A DNA stretch of 37,881 nucleotides from a virus (Duplodnaviria; Heunggongvirae; Uroviricota; Caudoviricetes), in the IMG/VR virus record IMGVR_UViG_2713896896_000009, positions 1 through 37,881 of that record. One strand, 5' to 3'. The notes beneath the pieces are model-generated. The model had not been told where the DNA came from. It worked only from the letters and a program-made list of their open reading frames with translations, and did no database searches. Positions 1 through 37,881 of the stretch are shown piece by piece; within the stretch, counting starts at the first letter, position 1, and every line of letters starts with the position of its first letter. The position numbers and the translations under genes are program-made.

Positions 1-1005
1 TTAATCCCCCGTGGACACAGCGTGGACACTTACGCCACCTTTCAGTGGATTAAGAGCCACCGCATCCTGCAGGTAATCCGGTGCAAAATGTGCATATGCC
101 ATTGTTTGCTGAATGGTTGCGTGACCAAGAATCTTCTGAAGCGCAATAATGTTTCCCCCATTCATCACAAAATGGCTGGCGAACGTATGCCGTAGCACAT
201 GTGCAGCCTGGCCTTTTGGCAAATCGGGTTTAACTCTTTTCAGCATCAGGCAGAATTCCCGGTACTTCACCTCAAACAAGTTGCCCGTTTCTTTGGTTTT
301 GATCGCCTCACAAACCGCCTGCGAAATTGGCACCGTCCTCTTCCGGCCATTTTTGGTTTCGAGAAACGTCACACGGTTATGAACTACCTGTTCTCCGCGA
401 AGCTTACTGGCTTCACCCCAACGCGCCCCGGTACTTAAACACAAAAGCGCAACACGCCAGTAGTCGCCCTCCAGTGTATCGAGCAATAGCGCTACTTCCT
501 TCTGGGACAGGAAAGCCATTTCTCGCGGGGATACATAAAGAATGGAGATCCCCCTTACCGGATGTTCTGCATCCCAAAGGCCTATTCTTTTCAGAACGGT
601 AAACATGCCGGATAGTCGGTTCATGTACCTGTTAGCAGATGACGGTTTCAATCCAGCAGCTATCTTTTGAGAACGCCACGCGATAATTTTCAGCTTATCA
701 AGATCCACAGCCTGCATATCAGCGCCAAGTTCATTGATTATGTTGCGCAGTTGTTTTCGGTCTTCTTCCGCCTTACGCCTGTGTTGACCGTGATACATCC
801 ACCACAACTCAAGCAAATCATTCAGTGTCCGGCGATCACGGTAGCCCTGTATGTATTCCCGCTTTTCAGCGTTCGCCATGATGTAGCGTTCAGTGGCCAC
901 CGCTACTGATTTTTTGTCAAATACCTTACGCACGCGCTTTCCCTTGCGTCCGTTCGGCCTGATGTCCAGCAAATAACGACCATCTTCGAGCTTCTTAATC
1001 GACAT
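1..1005 (-). CDS. int: Tyrosine integrase, P2 Int family
   Basis: The translation aligns along its length with P2 Int as I recall it (MSIKKLEDGRY... near the N-terminus, HxLRHTFA and AYAHFAPDYLQDA near the C-terminus). Start moved to the ATG at 1005, which has a GGAGGG Shine-Dalgarno 7 nt upstream; the track's 1020 start is a non-ATG codon. Confidence 0.93.
   Translation of the reverse strand: MSIKKLEDGRYLLDIRPNGRKGKRVRKVFDKKSVAVATERYIMANAEKREYIQGYRDRRTLNDLLELWWMYHGQHRRKAEEDRKQLRNIINELGADMQAVDLDKLKIIAWRSQKIAAGLKPSSANRYMNRLSGMFTVLKRIGLWDAEHPVRGISILYVSPREMAFLSQKEVALLLDTLEGDYWRVALLCLSTGARWGEASKLRGEQVVHNRVTFLETKNGRKRTVPISQAVCEAIKTKETGNLFEVKYREFCLMLKRVKPDLPKGQAAHVLRHTFASHFVMNGGNIIALQKILGHATIQQTMAYAHFAPDYLQDAVALNPLKGGVSVHAVSTGD
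11..29. repeat. Candidate attL core (gtggacacagcgtggacac) inside the int 3' end
   Basis: Matches 36703-36721 (gtggtcactgcgtggacac) at 17 of 19 positions, same orientation, at the two ends of the prophage gene set. Confidence 0.35.
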
Positions 1006-31307: not shown

Positions 31308-31464
31308 AGTTCCAGCCCCTTGTATCCGTTAAATGATTCGGCAACAATCATCACCCACCACGCGCGTAATCTCATCCCTGCGCCGTTCTTGCCGCCCGGC
31401 GACAACAAAAAGCAGTAACCACGCCCGCACACACATGCGACCATGCTGCACAGGGAGGGAGCCG
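31308..31464. promoter_or_regulatory. Divergent intergenic region between FI and D (late promoters expected)
   Basis: 157 bp between divergent starts; no Ogr-type TGT-N12-ACA site could be confidently placed. Confidence 0.3.
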
Positions 31465-32574
31465 ATGATTGACACCACCATGCAACTGTTCAACCAGAGT
31501 ACTGACCCCGTGAAGATGCCTGATTTTGATATTCTCGCGGAGGGGAAAACGCTGTCCGGTGTGGCAGAACGCCTGATGAGCCTGTCACTGACCGACAACC
31601 GGGGATTTGAAGCAGACCAGCTAACCATCACGCTGGATGATGCTGATGGTCAGTTGCAGTTGCCGCCACGGGGCGCTCGCCTGACGGTTCTCATTGGCTG
31701 GAAAGGTGAACCGCTGACAGAAAAAGGCACTTACATTGTTGATGAAATTGCTCATGAAGGACCGCCCGACAGACTGACCATTTCAGCCAGAAGCGCAGAT
31801 TTTCGGGATGAATTTAACGTCAAGCGCGAAGTATCCTGGCATGATGTGACCGTTGAACGCGTGGTGTCTGCAATTGCTCACCGATACGGCCTGAAACCGC
31901 AAATCAGCGAAATGCTGATGGATATTGAAATCGACCACGCTGACCAGACCGAAGAAAGCGACATGTCCTTCCTTACACGCATGGCGGAAATGCTGGGCGC
32001 AATCACCACGGTAAAAAGCGGTAATCTGTTATTCATCATGCCAGGTGGTGGCGTGAACGCGCAGGGAAAACCATTACCATCGTTTGCCATCACACGCAGC
32101 AGTGGCGATCGCCATCAGTTCCGCATTGCTGACCGCGAAGCGTATACGGGGGTACGCGCTTACTGGCTTGATCTTAATTACGGGAAAAAGAAAAAAGTCA
32201 GCGTGAAACGCCGTAAACCGCCAAAACCCAAAAAGGAGAAAAGTAGCAGCCGTGAAGGTGATTATATGGAAGGCGCGGAAGGCAATGTGTTTGTGTTACG
32301 CAAGACTTATCAGAACGAGCAGGCAGCAAGACGCGCAGCGGCGGCAAAGTGGCAGCAGCTACAACGCGGAGCCGCAGCGTTCTCCATCACGCTGGCGCGT
32401 GGACGTGCAGAACTCTATCCCGAAATGCATGGCACGGTGACAGGCTTCAAAAGTGACATCGACAATCAGGACTGGATTATTGCAAAAGCCGAGCACACCA
32501 TTGATAACAGTGGCTTTACCACGCAGCTTGAACTTGAAGCAAAAATCCCGGAATGGATAGCAGAAACAGAGTGA
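31465..32574 (+). CDS. D: Tail/late control protein, P2 gpD family
   Basis: ATG at 31465 after GGGAGGGA; LSLTDNRG.EADQLTITL and the FI-proximal position parallel P2 D. Confidence 0.88.
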   Translation: MIDTTMQLFNQSTDPVKMPDFDILAEGKTLSGVAERLMSLSLTDNRGFEADQLTITLDDADGQLQLPPRGARLTVLIGWKGEPLTEKGTYIVDEIAHEGPPDRLTISARSADFRDEFNVKREVSWHDVTVERVVSAIAHRYGLKPQISEMLMDIEIDHADQTEESDMSFLTRMAEMLGAITTVKSGNLLFIMPGGGVNAQGKPLPSFAITRSSGDRHQFRIADREAYTGVRAYWLDLNYGKKKKVSVKRRKPPKPKKEKSSSREGDYMEGAEGNVFVLRKTYQNEQAARRAAAAKWQQLQRGAAAFSITLARGRAELYPEMHGTVTGFKSDIDNQDWIIAKAEHTIDNSGFTTQLELEAKIPEWIAETE

Positions 32575-32799: not shown

Positions 32800-34302
32800 A
32801 TGAACAAAAAGCTGTATTTATTCCCAGACTCAAACATTTTTCTACAATGCAAGGCCTTGACGCAGGTAAATTTTTCCGAGATTACTGCTTGTGATGAAGT
32901 ATGTATCATTATTACAAGGCCCATTCAGCAAGAGATTGACCGCCAGAAAGGGCAAGGTAATTCCCGCCTATCCAAAAAAGCAAGGAAGGCTGCTAGCCTA
33001 TTTAATCAAGTAGTTGATTCAACTGACATGACTCTTGTTATTCGTGAACGCTCGCCGCGAGTTTTTCTTACCATGGATCTAAGCCTGAAACCATGTGAAC
33101 AGTTATCTGAACAATTGGATTATCAGGAGGCCGACGATCGTTTTGTTGGTATTGCGGCAGGGTATTGCGCTGACGATCCAGATTCGGAGGTGGCAATCAT
33201 TACCAATGATAGCGGTCCACGTTTTTCAGCAATAAAACATAATATAATCTGCTATAAAGTGCCTTCTTCATGGTTGCTTCCTGCTGAGCCAGATGAAAAG
33301 GATAAACAAATTAAATTGCTGGAAGCTAAGCTGAAGCAATTCACTCAGTCTATGCCCGATTTCAGCATTAAAGCAGCCGATGACGAGCAATTAAATATTG
33401 TACTTCCTTATTATACAGCTTTATCTGAATATGAAGTTGATAATTTGCTTTGTCAACTAACGGATGCATTCCCATTGGTTACAAACTTTGACAATGAACA
33501 AACTACCTCACAATCACTAGAAAAAATCATCAAGTCATTTAGTCAACAGGAGTATTTCCCTGTATCAGCAGATGATATTTCTCTTTATAAAGAAAAACAT
33601 TATCCACTTTGGAAAAAGCAGTGTGAAGAAATACTGAAAAACTGTCATACTCATATTAATCCGAAGGCAATAAAATACCCGCTGTCGTTTTTATTACAAA
33701 ACACAGGTTATACTATCGCTGAACGTGCTGTGGTAACATTTACAGCAAAAGGAGATTTTCGTCTGTGTGGATTTAATTGGGAGATAATGGAAGAGCTGAC
33801 TGAAAGCAAAAGGATTGACCTACCTTCAGCCCCTACCGCACCCAAAGGAAAATGGCGTAGTGTATGTGGCGTAACAGAAAGAATGCCTTACGCTTGGGGA
33901 GCTTTGGAAACACCGCTATCCAGTATAATTTCAAAAGAAATTGGTCCTTTGTTATCTCTTACTCCAACAGAAAGGGATAAAAACGATTTTTATTATAAAG
34001 AAAAGAGAAATGTGCCAGTTCAAGTTGTATCACTGGAATGCGAAGAGTGGCGTCATCAAGTCAAAGAAGAAATATTCCCGTTGTTCGTATATACAGCCAA
34101 CAAACCAAAGAAAGTGAATGGTGCAATTGAGGTAAGAGTTGATGCAAATAACCTTACCAATCCGGTCATTAAAACATTTAAATTAAAAATAACTATAGAA
34201 GAACATAGTGCATTTTCAACCATAACAGAAATGGTGCAGACATACATTCAAGAGCAGAAGAAAAGACAGAAAAGTTCTATTAGCGCACAAATCAAAACAT
34301 GA
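32800..34302 (+). CDS. 500-aa protein with N-terminal PIN-like nuclease domain and unassigned C-terminal region
   Basis: Clean ORF with GAGG RBS. The N-terminus shows the PIN arrangement of acidic residues (LFPDSN, DEVCIII, ADDRFVG, IITNDSG). The gene is visibly AT-rich relative to flanking phage genes and is inserted between D and ogr. Confidence 0.6.
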   Translation: MNKKLYLFPDSNIFLQCKALTQVNFSEITACDEVCIIITRPIQQEIDRQKGQGNSRLSKKARKAASLFNQVVDSTDMTLVIRERSPRVFLTMDLSLKPCEQLSEQLDYQEADDRFVGIAAGYCADDPDSEVAIITNDSGPRFSAIKHNIICYKVPSSWLLPAEPDEKDKQIKLLEAKLKQFTQSMPDFSIKAADDEQLNIVLPYYTALSEYEVDNLLCQLTDAFPLVTNFDNEQTTSQSLEKIIKSFSQQEYFPVSADDISLYKEKHYPLWKKQCEEILKNCHTHINPKAIKYPLSFLLQNTGYTIAERAVVTFTAKGDFRLCGFNWEIMEELTESKRIDLPSAPTAPKGKWRSVCGVTERMPYAWGALETPLSSIISKEIGPLLSLTPTERDKNDFYYKEKRNVPVQVVSLECEEWRHQVKEEIFPLFVYTANKPKKVNGAIEVRVDANNLTNPVIKTFKLKITIEEHSAFSTITEMVQTYIQEQKKRQKSSISAQIKT

Positions 34303-34545: not shown

Positions 34546-34806
34546 ATGTTCCGTTGTCCGCTTTGTCGCGCATCTGCCCGTATCCGCACCAGTCGTCCTG
34601 AAAATGATTCAAACACCGTGCGGCAAAAGTATTACCAGTGTAACAATCTAGAATGCGGCGTATGCTTCTCAACACTGGAAGCTTTCCATAAATTCACATC
34701 GAAACACGCCTCCGGCGTTCACTCTTCAGAAGGTATCCCGTGGCATGAGCTGCCAGCTTCACACAGGGGAAACAATCAGATGAGTTTGCCTTTGCCTCAA
34801 AATTAA
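34546..34806 (+). CDS. ogr: Ogr/Delta-type zinc-finger late-gene activator
   Basis: MFRCPLCRASARIRTSR...YYQCNNLEC matches the P2 Ogr C2C2 zinc-finger N-terminus. Confidence 0.85.
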   Translation: MFRCPLCRASARIRTSRPENDSNTVRQKYYQCNNLECGVCFSTLEAFHKFTSKHASGVHSSEGIPWHELPASHRGNNQMSLPLPQN

Positions 34807-34866
34807 CAGGCAGAATTGCCGGAGTAACAAAAAAGCGATAGATTACGCGCGGGTGCCTTTCGGCTA

Positions 34867-35079
34867 ATGGCTGGAGGGAATACCCAAAGGCCGGATGTGG
34901 AAAGGCCCCGGAAAACATCTCTGTTTAACCGAGGCCCTGACCATCTAACCTTAGCAAGTGATAGGTTAGCGCCTCCACAAAAAAGGAGCAAGCGCTATGT
35001 CGCAAAAATCGCTGATAGCCATCACGTTCTGCGTGACGGTAATCCTCATCATCTGGATGCTGCACGGTTCGCTGTGTGA
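34867..35079 (+). CDS. mok-like overlapping reading frame
   Basis: 70-aa ORF overlapping hok in another frame, as in hok/mok/sok loci. Confidence 0.4.
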   Translation: MAGGNTQRPDVERPRKTSLFNRGPDHLTLASDRLAPPQKRSKRYVAKIADSHHVLRDGNPHHLDAARFAV

Positions 35080-35137
35080 AATACGGATGAGCTTCTGGGG
35101 AGCGGAGTTTGCGGCGTTCTTACAGTGTAAGCAGTAA
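34997..35137 (+). CDS. hok: Hok/Gef-family type I toxin (46 aa)
   Basis: MSQKSLIAITFCVTVILIIWMLHGSLCEIRMSFWGAEFAAFLQCKQ has an N-terminal TM followed by the Hok signature SLCEIR and a C-terminal Cys; AAGGAG RBS. Confidence 0.75.
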   Translation: MSQKSLIAITFCVTVILIIWMLHGSLCEIRMSFWGAEFAAFLQCKQ

Positions 35138-35146
35138 GGAAACCGC

Positions 35147-35168
35147 GACGGGGGAGTAATCCCCCGTC
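35147..35168 (+). terminator. Stable hairpin immediately after hok
   Basis: gacggggga-gtaa-tcccccgtc. Confidence 0.4.
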
Positions 35169-35399
35169 AATCGGGGGCTAGGGTAAGGTCGATAAGGCAC
35201 CCTATCTCACAGCTCTAAATGCAAAAATTCCATGAAACTGTGGGATTTTTGCATCACATACTGATACAGACCAGCCCTTCTATATGCCTCACTCTATACC
35301 AGCTAATCAATTGACACTTATCAATAAAAAAAAATCTGATAAAATCAAAATGTTTTGTAACAAATATCAACTCGTATTAATCCAAAGGAGGCGGATTAC

Positions 35400-35732
35400 A
35401 TGGCATTAATCAAATGTCCTGAATGCCAGAAAGAGGTGAGCGATTCAGCATTGTATTGCCCTGCTTGTGGTAAACAACTACAAAAACTTAAGCGTTCATT
35501 TTTTGGACGGATCATTAAGTGGGTTTTTATATTATTTAATATTTTTATGATCTATACGCTTTTAGTTGGACTAGGAGGCACTAGTGAAATAATAAATAAT
35601 GCCACATCCGATGCCGAAAAAACCGGTGCAGTTATTGGTACAGGCTTAGGTTTAATTACCATTGGAAGCTTATGGGTTATTGGTGATATCATCATCGGAA
35701 TTTTAGTATTTCTTACTAAACCAAAGGGATAA
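35400..35732 (+). CDS. Zinc-ribbon membrane protein (N-terminal CPxC...CPxC, two TM segments)
   Basis: MALIKCPECQKEVSDSALYCPACGK followed by two hydrophobic helices; AT-rich; AAGGAGG RBS. Confidence 0.6.
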   Translation: MALIKCPECQKEVSDSALYCPACGKQLQKLKRSFFGRIIKWVFILFNIFMIYTLLVGLGGTSEIINNATSDAEKTGAVIGTGLGLITIGSLWVIGDIIIGILVFLTKPKG

Positions 35733-35736
35733 TAAA

Positions 35737-36630
35737 ATGAAAAATATAATTTTTTCTATAGGTGCATCATTTATATCAATTAGTGTACTGCCTGTTCACG
35801 CAGCAACTGAACATAAGAACTTCAATGCAGTACTCCAGTGCCGAGCAATAGAAAATAATAAAGACAGACTTTCTTGTTACGATAAGTCAATACAACCGAC
35901 TCGAACGAAAGTTGCTGAAAAATTCGAAAGCAGAGATCAATGCCCTGATGAGAAAGATGATGATAGACGTTTATCTTGTTATGATCGTTTCTTTTCTCCA
36001 ACATTTACTCCATCTGTAAACTCAAAATCTAAAACGGAAAAGCCAGTAACAACAGAGGCTCAGCAACCAAATCTTTCTGAGATATCTAAATGTCGTGCAG
36101 AAAATGATAAAGAAGCCAGACTAAACTGCTACGATAAACTATTCCCACAGGATAAAGCCGTTCAAGCTGAATCAAAATTAGAGAAAGCCACAGATGTAGG
36201 AAAATGGCACACATCCATTACTACATCGCCAATTGATGATTCGAAAAATGTAATTTTATCGTTAGAAAGTGATGATTATATCAGAACTCCATTTGGAGAA
36301 ACGGTTACTCCTACTCTGTTTATAGCTTGCCGAGAAAAGAAAACAGAAGTATTTCTTAGTTGGGATGTATATTTAGGCCTTGAACAAACCAGCATGCTTT
36401 ATCGCCTTGATAAACAGAAAGCAGTTGAGCGAAACTGGCTAGTATCTACAGATACAAAGGCTGTTTTTTATAAAGGTAATGACATTGATTTCATCCGAAA
36501 ACTAGCCAACTCAAGCAAAATGTATACAAAAATAACGCCTTATAATGAGAGCCCCGTAAGTGCAACTTTCAATTTAAACGGCCTGTCAAACGCGCTAAAA
36601 CCGCTTCAAGCTGCTTGTAACTGGAAATAG
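35737..36630 (+). CDS. Secreted protein with three tandem Cys-containing repeats and an unassigned C-terminal domain
   Basis: Signal peptide (MKNIIFSIGASFISISVLPVHA); repeats LQCRAIENNKDRLSCYDK, DQCPDEKDDDRRLSCYDR and SKCRAENDKEARLNCYDK; starts 4 nt after the upstream gene; AT-rich. Confidence 0.6.
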   Translation: MKNIIFSIGASFISISVLPVHAATEHKNFNAVLQCRAIENNKDRLSCYDKSIQPTRTKVAEKFESRDQCPDEKDDDRRLSCYDRFFSPTFTPSVNSKSKTEKPVTTEAQQPNLSEISKCRAENDKEARLNCYDKLFPQDKAVQAESKLEKATDVGKWHTSITTSPIDDSKNVILSLESDDYIRTPFGETVTPTLFIACREKKTEVFLSWDVYLGLEQTSMLYRLDKQKAVERNWLVSTDTKAVFYKGNDIDFIRKLANSSKMYTKITPYNESPVSATFNLNGLSNALKPLQAACNWK

Positions 36631-36696: not shown

Positions 36697-36702
36697 ATCT
36701 GT

Positions 36703-36721
36703 ACTCGAAAATGTGGTCACT
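36703..36721. repeat. Candidate attR core (gtggtcactgcgtggacac)
   Basis: 17 of 19 identical to 11-29 in direct orientation; lies between the last AT-rich cargo gene and host flk. Confidence 0.35.
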
Positions 36722-36897
36722 GCGTGGACACGCGCTGACATAAATCCTTTTACATCAATAAATTAAGTCATCATTTTTTTCATCAACAAGGATTTTCACG
36801 TTTGTGGTACCTGTATGAGACGAGAGTTAACCAAACAAGTGTGCCATAATCTCGCGCCCAGGCATACTTGCGATGATTTCAGGTATAAGGATACATA

Positions 36898-37881
36898 ATG
36901 ATACAACCTATTTCCGGCCCTCCTCCCGGGCAACTGCCAGACCGGGAAAACAGCGCAGGCAATCAGCCTTTATCCAGTCTGCAACGTACCGCCCTGGAAA
37001 GCTTGATGACCAAAGTAACCTCGCTGACGCAACAACAGAGAGCGGAGTTATGGGCCGGCATCAAACACGACATCGGCCTGCCAGGCGATTCACCTTTACT
37101 CTCGCGCCACTTCCCCGCTGCGGAACATAACCTCGCGCAACGTCTGCTTGCCGCGCAAAAGAGCTATTCTGCTCGTCGGCTTTTAGCCCAGTTAGGGGAA
37201 TATTTACGGTTGGGAAATAACCGTCAGGCGGTTACGGATTACATCCGAAATAACTTTGGTCAGACACCGCTTAACCAACTCTCGCCAGAACAATTAAAGA
37301 CCATTCTTAACCTGTTACAGGAAGGGAAAATGGTTATTCCTCAACCACAGCAACGTCAGGCTACCGATCGTCCTTTATTACCGGCGGAGCATAATACGCT
37401 TAAACAACTGGTGACTAAACTCGCCGCTGCGACAGGGGAACCCAGCAAGCAGATCTGGCAGTCGATGCTGGAGCTTTCTGGTGTGAAAGATGGCGAACTA
37501 ATCCCGGCAAAACTGTTTAACCATCTGGTCACCTGGTTGCAGGCGCGTCAGAGCTTAAGCCAACAAAATACCCCGACGCTGGAATCGCTTCAGATGGCGC
37601 TAAAGAAACCGCTGGATACCAACGAGCTGGCAGCACTATCCGCGTATATCGAGCAAAAATATGGCCTTTCCGCGCAATCCGTCCTTTCTTCTGTACAGGC
37701 TGAGGATATCCTGAACCAGCTCTATCAACGGCGGGTTAAAGGGATTGATCCACGAGACATCCAGCCACTGCTCAATCCCTTTCCACCATTAATGAACACA
37801 TTGCAAAATATGGCGACACGTCCCAGCGTGTGGATTTTGTTAGTCGCCATCCTCATCATGCTGGTCTGGCTGGTACGTTAA
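36898..37881 (+). CDS. flk: Flagellar regulator Flk (host chromosomal gene)
   Basis: MIQPISGPPPGQ N-terminus, PLLSRHFPAAE, LPLGNNRQAV, IPQPQQ and a C-terminal membrane anchor (WILLVAILIMLVWLV) match enterobacterial Flk as I recall it; complete ORF ending at the window edge. Confidence 0.8.
   Translation: MIQPISGPPPGQLPDRENSAGNQPLSSLQRTALESLMTKVTSLTQQQRAELWAGIKHDIGLPGDSPLLSRHFPAAEHNLAQRLLAAQKSYSARRLLAQLGEYLRLGNNRQAVTDYIRNNFGQTPLNQLSPEQLKTILNLLQEGKMVIPQPQQRQATDRPLLPAEHNTLKQLVTKLAAATGEPSKQIWQSMLELSGVKDGELIPAKLFNHLVTWLQARQSLSQQNTPTLESLQMALKKPLDTNELAALSAYIEQKYGLSAQSVLSSVQAEDILNQLYQRRVKGIDPRDIQPLLNPFPPLMNTLQNMATRPSVWILLVAILIMLVWLVR

What the first reader, a model, noticed from the sequence alone, without database searches (positions are those of the whole stretch)
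34860..35170. hok/mok-type type I toxin locus between ogr and the right-arm cargo
A 46-aa Hok/Gef-family peptide has a strong RBS, an overlapping mok-like frame, an upstream stem-loop (ctaacct...aggttag at 34945-34969) and a stable hairpin immediately downstream. This is the layout of hok/sok killer loci. Here it is positioned to stabilise the prophage or to act in phage exclusion.
Basis: partly seen in the sequence, partly recalled or inferred. Interest (0 to 1): 0.5.

Follow-up and report, generated by a model that had tools for sequence, protein, structure and literature searches.

The report
Hok/Sok toxin–antitoxin locus on P2-like prophage
This is a real but ordinary hok/sok-type killer-gene cassette (a small membrane toxin held in check by an antisense RNA), sitting next to the ogr gene of a P2-like prophage as it does in over a thousand E. 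coli genomes; its one unusual trait is that this branch of the family lacks the conserved 'mok' leader frame.

Summary
ORF 34997-35137 encodes a 46-aa peptide that passes Pfam HOK_GEF (31.1 bits, cutoff 22). The RBS, the 34945-34969 stem-loop and the 35146-35169 hairpin are all present.

The locus is wider than reported, about 34816-35255. It contains:
- a hok promoter and a transcript start at G34851;
- a 5' 'tac' box that pairs with a 3' 'fbi' box (35187-35202) or, alternatively, with 'ucb' (34900-34909);
- a minus-strand Sok-like gene (-35 at 34991-34986, -10 TAACCT at 34968-34963, RNA about 34955 to 34897).

Twenty related loci support these helices with compensatory changes. The -10 box is identical to the mutationally defined sokW -10.

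The '70-aa mok-like frame' is not conserved. In 10 of 20 relatives all three frames are closed between the canonical mok start position and the hok SD, yet Hok stays under purifying selection (dN/dS about 0.2).

The same ogr-hok arrangement, at 90-97% identity, is annotated 'Hok/Gef family protein' in E. coli genomes and Peduoviridae phages. A peptide two residues different is in a 2026 preprint's toxicity test set and is not among the three homologs it lists as non-toxic.

Verdict: a correct call of a known system. The mok part is unsupported and the biological role is untested. Low interest.

The parts
34816..34844 (+). Putative hok promoter: -35 TTGCCG (34816-34821), 17-nt spacer, -10 TAGATT (34839-34844), then 6 nt to the start G at 34851
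   Evidence: Read from the sequence. The -10 box TAGATT/TAGAAT/TAAATT lies 6 nt before GGGTG in 19 of 20 related loci. It matches only 8 of 12 consensus positions, so the generic scan did not flag it. The start site is inferred from homology, not measured.
34851..34865 (+). 5' end of the hok mRNA, the 'tac' box (GGGUGCCUUUCGGCU)
   Evidence: The Rfam RF01794 match starts at 34851. GGGTGCC is invariant in 20 loci. In the full-length fold it pairs with 35187-35202, and in the 3'-truncated fold with 34900-34909. Columns 10-11 covary with both partners.
34900..34909 (+). 'ucb'-like box (GAAAGGCCCC), the alternative partner of tac in the 3'-truncated mRNA
   Evidence: Seen in the fold of 34851-35170. 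Across 20 loci 94% of cells are paired against 28-67% when the partner is slid, and 2 pairs carry compensatory changes.
34867..35079 (+). It is present here but is probably not a gene.
   Evidence: Listed. It is truncated to 24-28 codons, or absent, in phage 500465-2, the Stx-phage copies, the IncI1-plasmid copy and the Salmonella copies. All three frames are closed upstream of the hok SD in 10 of 20 loci. No Pfam hit. The position homologous to the mok ATG of hokW/hokC reads ATC-TAA here (34943-34948).
34897..34955 (-). Predicted Sok-like antisense RNA, about 57-59 nt: a 12-nt single-stranded 5' tail (GCUAAGGUUAGA), a long hairpin, and a short U-containing tail
   Evidence: Minus-strand sequence. 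Fold energy -24.8 kcal/mol, z = -3.7. The hairpin pairs GGCC..GGCC show compensatory changes (alignment columns 54/90 and 56/88). The architecture matches the annotated 59-nt sokC of K-12. Both ends are inferred.
34963..34991 (-). Putative sok promoter: -35 TTGCTC (34991 to 34986), 17-nt spacer, -10 TAACCT (34968 to 34963), then 7 nt to G34955
   Evidence: Spacing and boxes are the same in all 20 loci. The plus-strand octamer TAGGTTAG (34962-34969) is identical to the sokW octamer whose mutation to CCGGCTCG abolished antitoxin activity (PMC8621323; primers mapped). The generic scan did not flag it.
34945..34969 (+). Its 5' arm is the target of the Sok 5' tail; its 3' arm is the sok -10 box.
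   Evidence: Only a 3-bp core is kept by RNAalifold, in 100% of cells (columns 105-107/119-121). The probability that 34945-34955 is unpaired rises from 0.12 in the full-length mRNA to about 0.55-0.6 in the 3'-truncated form.
34967..34997 (+). Hairpin that sequesters the hok Shine-Dalgarno sequence (UAGCGCCUCC ... GGAG ... GCGCUA); SD AGGAG at 34984-34988
   Evidence: mean probability that the SD is unpaired is about 0.2 in every form. The outer helix is conserved, columns 123-128/149-155, with 99% of cells paired.
34997..35137 (+). hok: 46-aa Hok/Gef-family membrane toxin gene
   Evidence: Pfam HOK_GEF 31.1 bits against cutoff 22. 39% identity to R1 Hok over 31 aa, including SLCEIR and AAF. 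96% identical to proteins named 'Hok/Gef family protein'. dN/dS about 0.2. It differs by 2 aa from 72_1621 in the preprint's toxicity test set, which is not among the three homologs listed as non-toxic.
34998..35116 (+). Long-range helix closing the hok start region: 34998-35012 (UGUCGCAAAAAUCGC) pairs with 35102-35116 (GCGGAGUUUGCGGCG, the codons for AEFAA)
   Evidence: RNAalifold helix 8: 13 pairs, 100% of cells paired, with only G-U-type changes. It also appears in the centroid of the single-sequence fold.
35146..35169 (+). Stable hairpin just after the hok stop codon (CGACGGGGGA-GUAA-UCCCCCGUCA); likely the 3' boundary of the processed, active mRNA
   Evidence: Five of its nine pairs carry compensatory changes across the 20 loci. 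The role as a stop for 3' trimming is inferred from the R1 paradigm.
35187..35202 (+). 'fbi' box (GGUCGAUAAGGCACCC), which pairs with the 5' tac box
   Evidence: Columns 360-373: seven invariant pairs plus four pairs that all covary.
35219..35254 (+). Terminal A-tract/U-tract hairpin (AUGCAAAAAUUCCAU..GUGGGAUUUUUGCAU); probable transcription terminator of the hok mRNA
   Evidence: Fold. It is weak (few G-C pairs) and the terminator scan did not flag it on the + strand. Relatives in other hosts have a canonical terminator (CCCGCAG..CUGCGGG UUUUCUUUUU) at the same place.

Best explanation
This is an intact hok/sok-type type I toxin-antitoxin cassette carried as cargo at the right end of a P2-like prophage, between ogr and the Zn-ribbon/'TagO'-labelled genes.

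Proposed mechanism (the RNA architecture and its conservation are shown in silico; transcription, processing, RNase III cleavage, killing and mok-independence are inferred from the R1 and hokW paradigms):
1. A weak constitutive promoter makes a hok mRNA of about 350-400 nt, starting at G34851.
2. In the full-length RNA the 5' tac box pairs with the 3' fbi box. The SD sits in a hairpin and the start codon is paired with downstream coding sequence. The RNA is therefore neither translated nor bound by antisense RNA.
3. Slow 3' trimming back to the 35146-35169 hairpin removes fbi. Tac then re-pairs with ucb, which exposes the target of the Sok 5' tail (34945-34955).
4. A short, unstable antisense RNA (about 34955 to 34897), made from a promoter that overlaps the hok SD region, pairs with the mRNA leader and triggers its decay, probably through RNase III.
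5. When Sok supply stops (loss of the prophage, transcription shut-off by an infecting phage, or prophage induction), the pool of stable mRNA is activated. The 46-aa Hok peptide inserts into the inner membrane and kills or lyses the cell.

Unlike R1 hok/sok, this subfamily has no conserved mok leader frame. Hok translation is therefore most likely initiated directly at its own strong SD, and Sok most likely acts through mRNA decay rather than by blocking mok.
For: - Toxin: Pfam HOK_GEF above its cutoff. The SLCEIR and AAF motifs are shared with R1 Hok. Purifying selection, dN/dS median 0.22. A peptide 2 aa different belongs to cluster 72 of the preprint's toxicity test set and is not among the three homologs listed as non-toxic.
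- RNA switch: tac-fbi pairing in the MFE fold. Consensus fold of 20 loci: 98.1% of cells paired against 37-43% when slid, 14 pairs with compensatory changes, covariation score 0.200 against 0.130 in shuffles (0 of 500 reach it). The alternative tac-ucb helix has 94% of cells paired and 2 covarying pairs, and the same tac columns covary with fbi. In silico truncation exposes the Sok target.
- Sok: promoter boxes and spacing are the same in 20 of 20 loci, with a -10 identical to the mutationally defined sokW -10 (PMC8621323). The predicted RNA has a Sok-like fold, z = -3.7. The Rfam hok-leader model matches at E 1e-6.
- No mok.
- Context: the same ogr-hok arrangement occurs in Peduoviridae phages and E. 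coli or Salmonella prophages.
Against: - There is no expression, processing or toxicity data for this exact locus.
- Neither promoter reaches the generic sigma-70 consensus threshold.
- The Rfam score is below the gathering threshold.
- The predicted hok SD stays sequestered (probability unpaired about 0.2) in every in silico form. How translation starts without mok is therefore unexplained.
- In R1, mok translation up to the hok SD is mandatory (PMC9841398).
- The window itself does keep one open overlapping frame, so mok-type coupling from GTG 34897 or ATG 34867 cannot be excluded for this particular copy.
- Most compensatory changes separate an E. coli-type clade from a Salmonella-type clade, so they represent few independent events.
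Confidence: 0.75

Rival explanations
1. A canonical hok/mok/sok locus. The 70-codon frame 34867-35079 is a true mok whose translation opens the hok SD hairpin, and Sok works by blocking mok translation.
For: The frame is open and overlaps the hok start. It has 70 codons, the same length as R1 mok and F flmC. GTG 34897 has an AAGG 7 nt upstream. In R1, mok translation is required. The hok SD is predicted to be sequestered in all RNA forms.
Against: The frame is broken in close relatives that keep an intact Hok, including phage 500465-2, the Stx-phage copies and the IncI1 plasmid. Nine of 20 loci have no ATG/GTG/TTG ORF reaching the anti-SD, and 10 of 20 have stops in all three frames. Hok in those loci is still under purifying selection. 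The position homologous to the mok ATG is ATC-TAA. The ATG at 34867 has no SD and lies 16 nt from the 5' end. The predicted Sok covers 34897-34955, so it would overlap GTG 34897 only at its extreme 3' end.
Confidence: 0.12
2. An inactive relic. Like most K-12 chromosomal hok loci, the cassette is conserved by hitch-hiking on the prophage but no longer expresses a toxin.
For: Chromosomal hok loci of K-12 are reported to be largely inactive (discussion of 10.1101/2025.08.07.668861). Degenerate copies of this subfamily exist: an E. albertii plasmid copy with TAG at codon 2 and a 5'-truncated Salmonella copy. The promoters are weak. The terminator in this lineage is atypical.
Against: All elements are intact here and match the family consensus. 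dN/dS is about 0.2 over dS up to 1.3. Compensatory changes maintain the helices. Cluster 72 peptides were in the toxicity test set and are not among the non-toxic ones. The locus is retained in independent mobile elements: P2-like phages, Stx phages and IncI1 plasmids.
Confidence: 0.08
3. The same cassette, but its selected role is to assist lysis and phage release after induction, as shown for hokW-sokW of Sp5, rather than prophage addiction or exclusion of other phages.
For: hokW-sokW: Sok disappears after induction, HokW accumulates about 1 h before endolysin, and deletion halves phage yield (PMC8621323). The cassette lies directly downstream of ogr, the late-gene activator, with no terminator-like site between the ogr stop (34806) and the hok promoter. 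Read-through could therefore couple it to the lytic programme (inference).
Against: hokW is a different Hok cluster (51 aa, with an in-frame mokW). Sp5 itself also carries the closer relative of this locus next to lom, and that copy was not studied. Nothing was tested for P2-like phages. The plasmid-borne copies fit an addiction role better.
Confidence: 0.3

Closest known systems
Hok 'cluster 72' of Escalera-Maurer et al. 2026 (bioRxiv 10.1101/2025.08.07.668861): the RefSeq 'Hok/Gef family protein' found next to ogr in P2-like (Peduoviridae: P88, 500465-2, Xuanwuvirus, Shae_phiSM) prophages
   Same: Same gene at the same position. DNA is 90-97% identical over the whole cassette. The peptide is 96% identical, differing by 2 aa from the tested representative 72_1621.
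   Different: Only allelic differences. The host flank (flk) is 85.5% identical to E. coli, so the host is probably not E. coli sensu stricto. The preprint analysed only the coding sequence and explicitly did not analyse Mok, Sok or the mRNA elements.
hok/sok of plasmid R1 (and flm of F), the family paradigm
   Same: Hok/Gef peptide. Sok-type antisense RNA with a free 5' tail and a hairpin, made from a promoter that overlaps the hok SD region. Mutually exclusive tac-fbi and tac-ucb pairings. Sequestered hok SD. Hairpin after the stop codon. An mRNA of about 350-400 nt.
   Different: The peptide is only 39% identical over 31 aa and is shorter, 46 aa against 52. There is no conserved mok, whereas mok translation is mandatory in R1. 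The Rfam leader model scores 38.8 bits here against 91.8 for F flm.
hokW-sokW of Stx2 prophage Sp5 (Takada et al. 2021, PMC8621323)
   Same: A prophage-borne hok/sok cassette. The sok -10 octamer TAGGTTAG and the -35/-10 spacing are identical. The mRNA starts with GGGTGC.
   Different: It belongs to a different Hok cluster (51 aa, MKQQKAM...) with a 70-aa in-frame mokW. It sits elsewhere in a lambdoid genome. Sp5 also carries a second, unannotated hok locus next to lom, and that copy is the true relative of the window locus at 80% DNA identity.
hokC/mokC/sokC (gef) of E. coli K-12
   Same: Annotated reference for the layout. The 59-nt sokC lies antisense to the leader, and the mRNA starts with GGGTGCTTGAGG.
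   Different: mokC is an in-frame N-terminal extension of hokC. The homologous ATG is ATC-TAA in the window. The K-12 locus is disrupted downstream by IS186.

Membership tests
Hok/Gef toxin family (Pfam PF01848) | The peptide matches the HOK_GEF profile above the curated cutoff | tested here: met
   31.1 bits against a cutoff of 22, E 1.8e-7, covering residues 6-44.
Hok/Gef toxin family (Pfam PF01848) | A peptide of about 50 aa with an N-terminal hydrophobic helix and the conserved L-C-E motif | tested here: met
   46 aa. The hydrophobic stretch LIAITFCVTVILIIWML is followed by SLCEIR. C27, E28 and A39-A40-F41 are invariant in 18 subfamily members. The alignment to R1 Hok covers these motifs.
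Hok/Gef toxin family (Pfam PF01848) | Toxic to the cell when expressed (membrane depolarisation) | not testable with these tools
   Literature only. Cluster 72 representatives, one of them 2 aa different, are in the preprint's test set and are not among the 3 non-toxic homologs.
[quoted passage not shown] | A cis-encoded antisense Sok RNA gene (promoter plus hairpin) overlapping the hok mRNA leader | tested here: met
   In silico only. The -35/17 nt/-10/7 nt/G arrangement is conserved in 20 of 20 loci. The -10 is identical to the mutationally defined sokW -10. The 59-nt RNA folds as a free 5' tail plus a hairpin, z = -3.7. The transcript itself was not observed.
[quoted passage not shown] | Long-range 5'-3' pairing (tac-fbi) that locks the full-length mRNA | tested here: met
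   34851-34865 pairs with 35187-35202 in the MFE fold. Seven invariant pairs plus four covarying pairs in 20 loci.
[quoted passage not shown] | Alternative tac-ucb pairing after 3' processing (refolding switch) | tested here: met
   Predicted in the fold truncated at 35170. 94% of cells are paired and 2 pairs covary. The processing itself cannot be tested here.
[quoted passage not shown] | An overlapping mok reading frame whose translation is coupled to, and required for, hok translation | tested here: not met
   A 70-codon frame is open in the window but is not conserved. Nine of 20 loci lack any ATG/GTG/TTG ORF reaching the anti-SD. Ten of 20 have stops in all three frames. The canonical mok ATG position reads ATC-TAA here.
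[quoted passage not shown] | The hok Shine-Dalgarno sequence is sequestered in secondary structure | tested here: met
   Hairpin at 34967-34997. Probability that the SD is unpaired is about 0.2. The helix is conserved with 99% of cells paired.
Rfam RF01794 ('sok', which in fact models the hok mRNA leader on the sense strand) | Score at or above the gathering threshold of 59 bits | tested here: not met
   38.8 bits, E 1e-6, full-length match on the + strand. K-12 hokC scores 118 and F flm 91.8. The Sp5 lom-adjacent relative scores 35.6.

The most novel reading that the evidence does not exclude
This prophage-borne Hok subfamily (46 aa; next to ogr in P2-like phages, next to lom in Stx phages, and in tandem arrays in Salmonella) is a natural mok-independent branch of hok/sok. 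Hok would be translated directly from its own SD once the mRNA refolds, and Sok would control it purely through leader pairing and decay. If so, the leader-peptide coupling regarded as essential in R1 is dispensable in a large, widespread branch of the family.
Probability: 0.55. Interest if true: 0.35.

Novelty: new variant of a known kind. Interest (0 to 1): 0.22.

Why it matters
As a locus it adds little. Genome pipelines already label this gene 'Hok/Gef family protein' in thousands of genomes, and the preprint's toxicity screen points to a near-identical peptide being toxic.

Two points have modest value.

First, comparative analysis of 20 loci gives a full, covariation-supported map of this subfamily: promoters, tac, ucb, fbi, Sok and the SD hairpin. 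The Rfam model misses this subfamily at its gathering threshold, and the latest survey did not dissect these elements.

Second, the subfamily appears to lack mok. This gives type I toxin-antitoxin researchers a natural system for asking how Hok translation is activated and repressed without leader-peptide coupling.

For phage biology, the fixed position directly after ogr, and the 2-3 tandem copies there in Salmonella, mark a conserved cargo slot in P2-like prophages. Its benefit (addiction, lysis timing or exclusion) is still untested.

Tried and rejected
- The generic promoter and terminator scan flagged neither the hok nor the sok promoter. Its only relevant hit was the post-stop hairpin, read on the minus strand. 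Promoter assignments therefore rest on homology and conservation, not on consensus strength.
- Rfam at its gathering threshold finds nothing. Only the E-value mode finds RF01794, and that model turned out to be sense to the hok mRNA, so it is not evidence for Sok itself.
- An in-frame mok of the hokW/hokC type was rejected. The homologous ATG is ATC, followed by TAA, TAG and TAG in the hok frame.
- A 17-codon upstream ORF (ATG 34895 to TAA 34948) was considered as a mini-mok and rejected. Its length varies from 1 to 24 codons, and the ATG is absent in the Salmonella copies.
- I first assumed the 80%-identical Stx-phage relative was hokW itself. The published primers do not map there. Sp5 carries two hok loci, and hokW is the other one.
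- PADLOC gave no hit for Hok or the three neighbouring cargo proteins.
- The genome-contig scan returned only 7 loci, several in assemblies that are probably contaminated. Diversity had to be added through the look-up of encoding contigs.
- Literature searches found no paper on hok/sok in P2-like phages. HokST of Salmonella is on plasmid pCol1B9, and its relation to this subfamily was not examined.
- In silico folding did not show the hok SD opening in any RNA form, so the step that activates translation remains unexplained.
Full report
OBSERVATION

- ORF 34997-35137 (+) encodes the 46-aa peptide MSQKSLIAITFCVTVILIIWMLHGSLCEIRMSFWGAEFAAFLQCKQ.
- AGGAG lies at 34984-34988, 8 nt before the ATG.
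- A 70-codon +1 frame spans 34867-35079.
- CTAACCT (34945-34951) and AGGTTAG (34963-34969) form an inverted repeat.
- A 10-bp G+C-rich hairpin at 35146-35169 follows the stop codon.

The peptide passes Pfam HOK_GEF at 31.1 bits against a cutoff of 22. It aligns to R1 Hok across the SLCEIR and AAF motifs, 39% identity over 31 aa. ogr (Pfam Ogr_Delta) lies at 34546-34806.

CONTEXT

The window is a P2-like prophage. Its order is integrase at the left end, replication and morphogenesis genes, gpD at 31333-32574, a 500-aa PIN-domain cargo ORF, ogr, the hok cassette, a Zn-ribbon membrane protein, and a 297-aa protein that RefSeq labels 'TagO'. The host gene flk follows from 36898. The flk flank is only 85.5% identical to E. 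coli, so the host is probably a relative rather than E. coli itself.

HOW COMMON IT IS

The 461 bases 34800-35260 are 93-97% identical to Peduoviridae phages (Shae_phiSM, 500465-2, P88, Xuanwuvirus). There the gene is annotated 'MokW-like host killing' or 'hypothetical', directly after ogr.

Of 5426 complete E. coli genomes, 1753 have a match, and about 1190 records match at 90% identity or more. In all 25 best hits listed, the match overlaps genes annotated 'Hok/Gef family protein' and 'ogr/Delta-like zinc finger family protein'.

More distant copies (about 80% identity) sit downstream of lom in Stx phages, and copies at 85% sit on IncI1 plasmids. Salmonella P2-like prophages carry two or three tandem copies after ogr.

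A 2026 preprint catalogued 32,532 hok loci, found them enriched in prophages, and tested representatives for toxicity. Its cluster 72 contains a peptide two residues different from this one (72_1621) and the Stx lom-type peptide (72_1589). Neither is among the three homologs it reports as non-toxic.

ANATOMY BEYOND THE REPORTED RANGE

I aligned the locus with F flm, F srnB, K-12 hokC/sokC and Sp5 hokW. I then built a set of 20 distinct loci of this subfamily from E. coli, E. albertii, Salmonella, Citrobacter braakii, Klebsiella oxytoca, Stx phages and a plasmid.

- The mRNA start GGGTGCC at 34851 is invariant. A -10 box (TAGATT or TAGAAT) precedes it by 6 nt in 19 of 20 loci.
- In the MFE fold of the full-length RNA, 34851-34865 pairs with 35187-35202. 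This is the tac-fbi lock.
- RNAalifold recovers this closure, the Sok-target hairpin, the SD-sequestering hairpin, a 13-bp helix between the hok start region (34998-35012) and the AEFAA codons (35102-35116), and the post-stop hairpin.
- On the named structure, 98.1% of cells pair against 37-43% when partners are slid. Fourteen pairs carry compensatory changes. The covariation score is 0.200 against 0.130 in shuffles, reached by 0 of 500.
- The alternative tac-ucb helix (34851-34861 with 34900-34909) appears when the RNA is truncated at 35170. It has 94% of cells paired and two covarying pairs. The same tac columns covary with fbi. That pattern is the signature of the hok refolding switch.
- Truncation raises the predicted accessibility of 34945-34955 from 0.12 to about 0.55-0.6.

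THE SOK GENE

On the minus strand, TTGCTC (34991 to 34986), a 17-nt spacer, TAACCT (34968 to 34963), 7 nt and then G34955 form a promoter whose boxes and spacing recur in all 20 loci.

The plus-strand octamer TAGGTTAG is the same octamer that Takada et al. mutated to CCGGCTCG to abolish sokW function. I mapped their primers onto the Sp5 sequence to confirm this.

The predicted transcript 34955 to 34897 has a 12-nt free 5' tail and a long hairpin (-24.8 kcal/mol, z = -3.7). This is the architecture of Sok and of the annotated 59-nt sokC.

The Rfam 'sok' model RF01794 matches 34851-35008 on the + strand. It also matches K-12 on the hokC strand, not the sokC strand. It therefore models the hok leader, not Sok. 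This subfamily scores only 36-39 bits against a threshold of 59.

MOK

The 70-codon frame is open only in the window and its closest relatives. It stops after 24-28 codons in phage 500465-2 and the IncI1-plasmid copy, and it has no counterpart reaching hok in the Stx-phage copies.

Nine of 20 loci have no ATG/GTG/TTG ORF that reaches the anti-SD. In 10 of 20 loci all three frames contain a stop between the canonical mok initiation site and the hok SD. At the position of the mok ATG in hokW and hokC, the window reads ATC-TAA.

Even so, Hok in the loci that cannot read through is under purifying selection: median dN/dS 0.22, maximum 0.40, over 33 pairs.

In R1, mok translation up to the hok SD is mandatory (PMC9841398). 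This subfamily therefore departs from the paradigm in one defining feature. The 2026 survey explicitly left Mok unanalysed. How the sequestered SD (probability unpaired about 0.2 in every predicted form) becomes available is unexplained.

MECHANISM AND ROLE

Shown in silico: the toxin family, the RNA architecture and its conservation.

Inferred from the R1 and hokW paradigms: constitutive transcription, 3' trimming, refolding, Sok pairing and RNase III decay, and killing when Sok is no longer supplied.

The biological role was not tested. The candidates are:
- prophage addiction;
- lysis assistance on induction, as demonstrated for hokW-sokW;
- exclusion of infecting phages. The survey found no enrichment of hok loci near defence systems, and PADLOC gives no hit for Hok or its neighbours.

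VERDICT

This is a correct identification of a known, widely annotated system. The boundaries should be widened to about 34816-35255. The mok element is unsupported. The locus belongs to a subfamily that appears to work without mok, which is a modest variant of a well-known kind.

Noticed in passing
window 32800-34302 (+): A 500-aa ORF with an N-terminal PIN_4 domain sits between gpD and ogr. Related prophages carry different content in this slot (E. coli 95NR1, phage 500465-2), so it looks like a variable cargo (moron) site. No PADLOC hit.
   Followed up: partly
window 35400-35732 and 35737-36630 (+): A 110-aa zinc-ribbon protein with a hydrophobic C-terminal half, followed by a 297-aa protein that RefSeq labels 'type VI secretion system-associated protein TagO'. 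The pair is conserved cargo downstream of hok in E. coli P2-like prophages integrated next to flk. No PADLOC hit; function unknown.
   Followed up: partly
L023 505-645, 1003-1143, 1501-1641 (also L024; two copies in L025 and L026): Salmonella P2-like prophages carry two or three tandem copies of this hok cassette, period about 498 bp, directly after ogr. Each copy has its own promoter, tac, Sok region and fbi.
   Followed up: partly
L005 1521-1875 (AP000363.1 44532-44906) and L010 11202-11414: Stx2 prophage Sp5 (VT2-Sakai) has two hok loci. One is the characterised hokW-sokW (orf74). The other lies just downstream of lom and is not annotated in that record. The second is the closer relative of the window locus and has not been studied experimentally, as far as I could find.
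   Followed up: yes
L004 502-654 (-) compared with sokC at 553-611 (+): Rfam RF01794, named 'sok antitoxin', matches the strand of the hok mRNA leader and not the strand of the annotated sokC RNA. Strand calls based on this family would be inverted.
   Followed up: yes
window 36700-37881: The host flank (flk and the start of yfcJ) is only 85.5% identical to every E. coli genome, while the prophage cargo is 93-97% identical to E. coli prophages. The host is probably another Escherichia or Citrobacter-like species with the prophage at the same flk site.
   Followed up: partly
L013, L014, L017: Nearly identical E. coli-type ogr-hok or lom-hok DNA (up to 98% peptide identity) occurs in assemblies labelled Planococcaceae MAG, Vagococcus sp. 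and Xanthomonas pisi. This most likely reflects contamination of those assemblies.
   Followed up: no
L021 about 1300-1400; L008 1678-1779: Degenerate copies of the subfamily exist. A Salmonella copy has lost its promoter and tac box at a junction, and an E. albertii plasmid copy has TAG at hok codon 2 plus internal deletions.
   Followed up: no
window 35102-35125: The codons for AEFAAFLQ (GCGGAGTTTGCGGCGTTCTTACAG) are almost invariant at the nucleotide level across 20 loci whose synonymous divergence elsewhere reaches dS above 1. This fits the region doubling as the RNA partner of the hok start region.
   Followed up: partly
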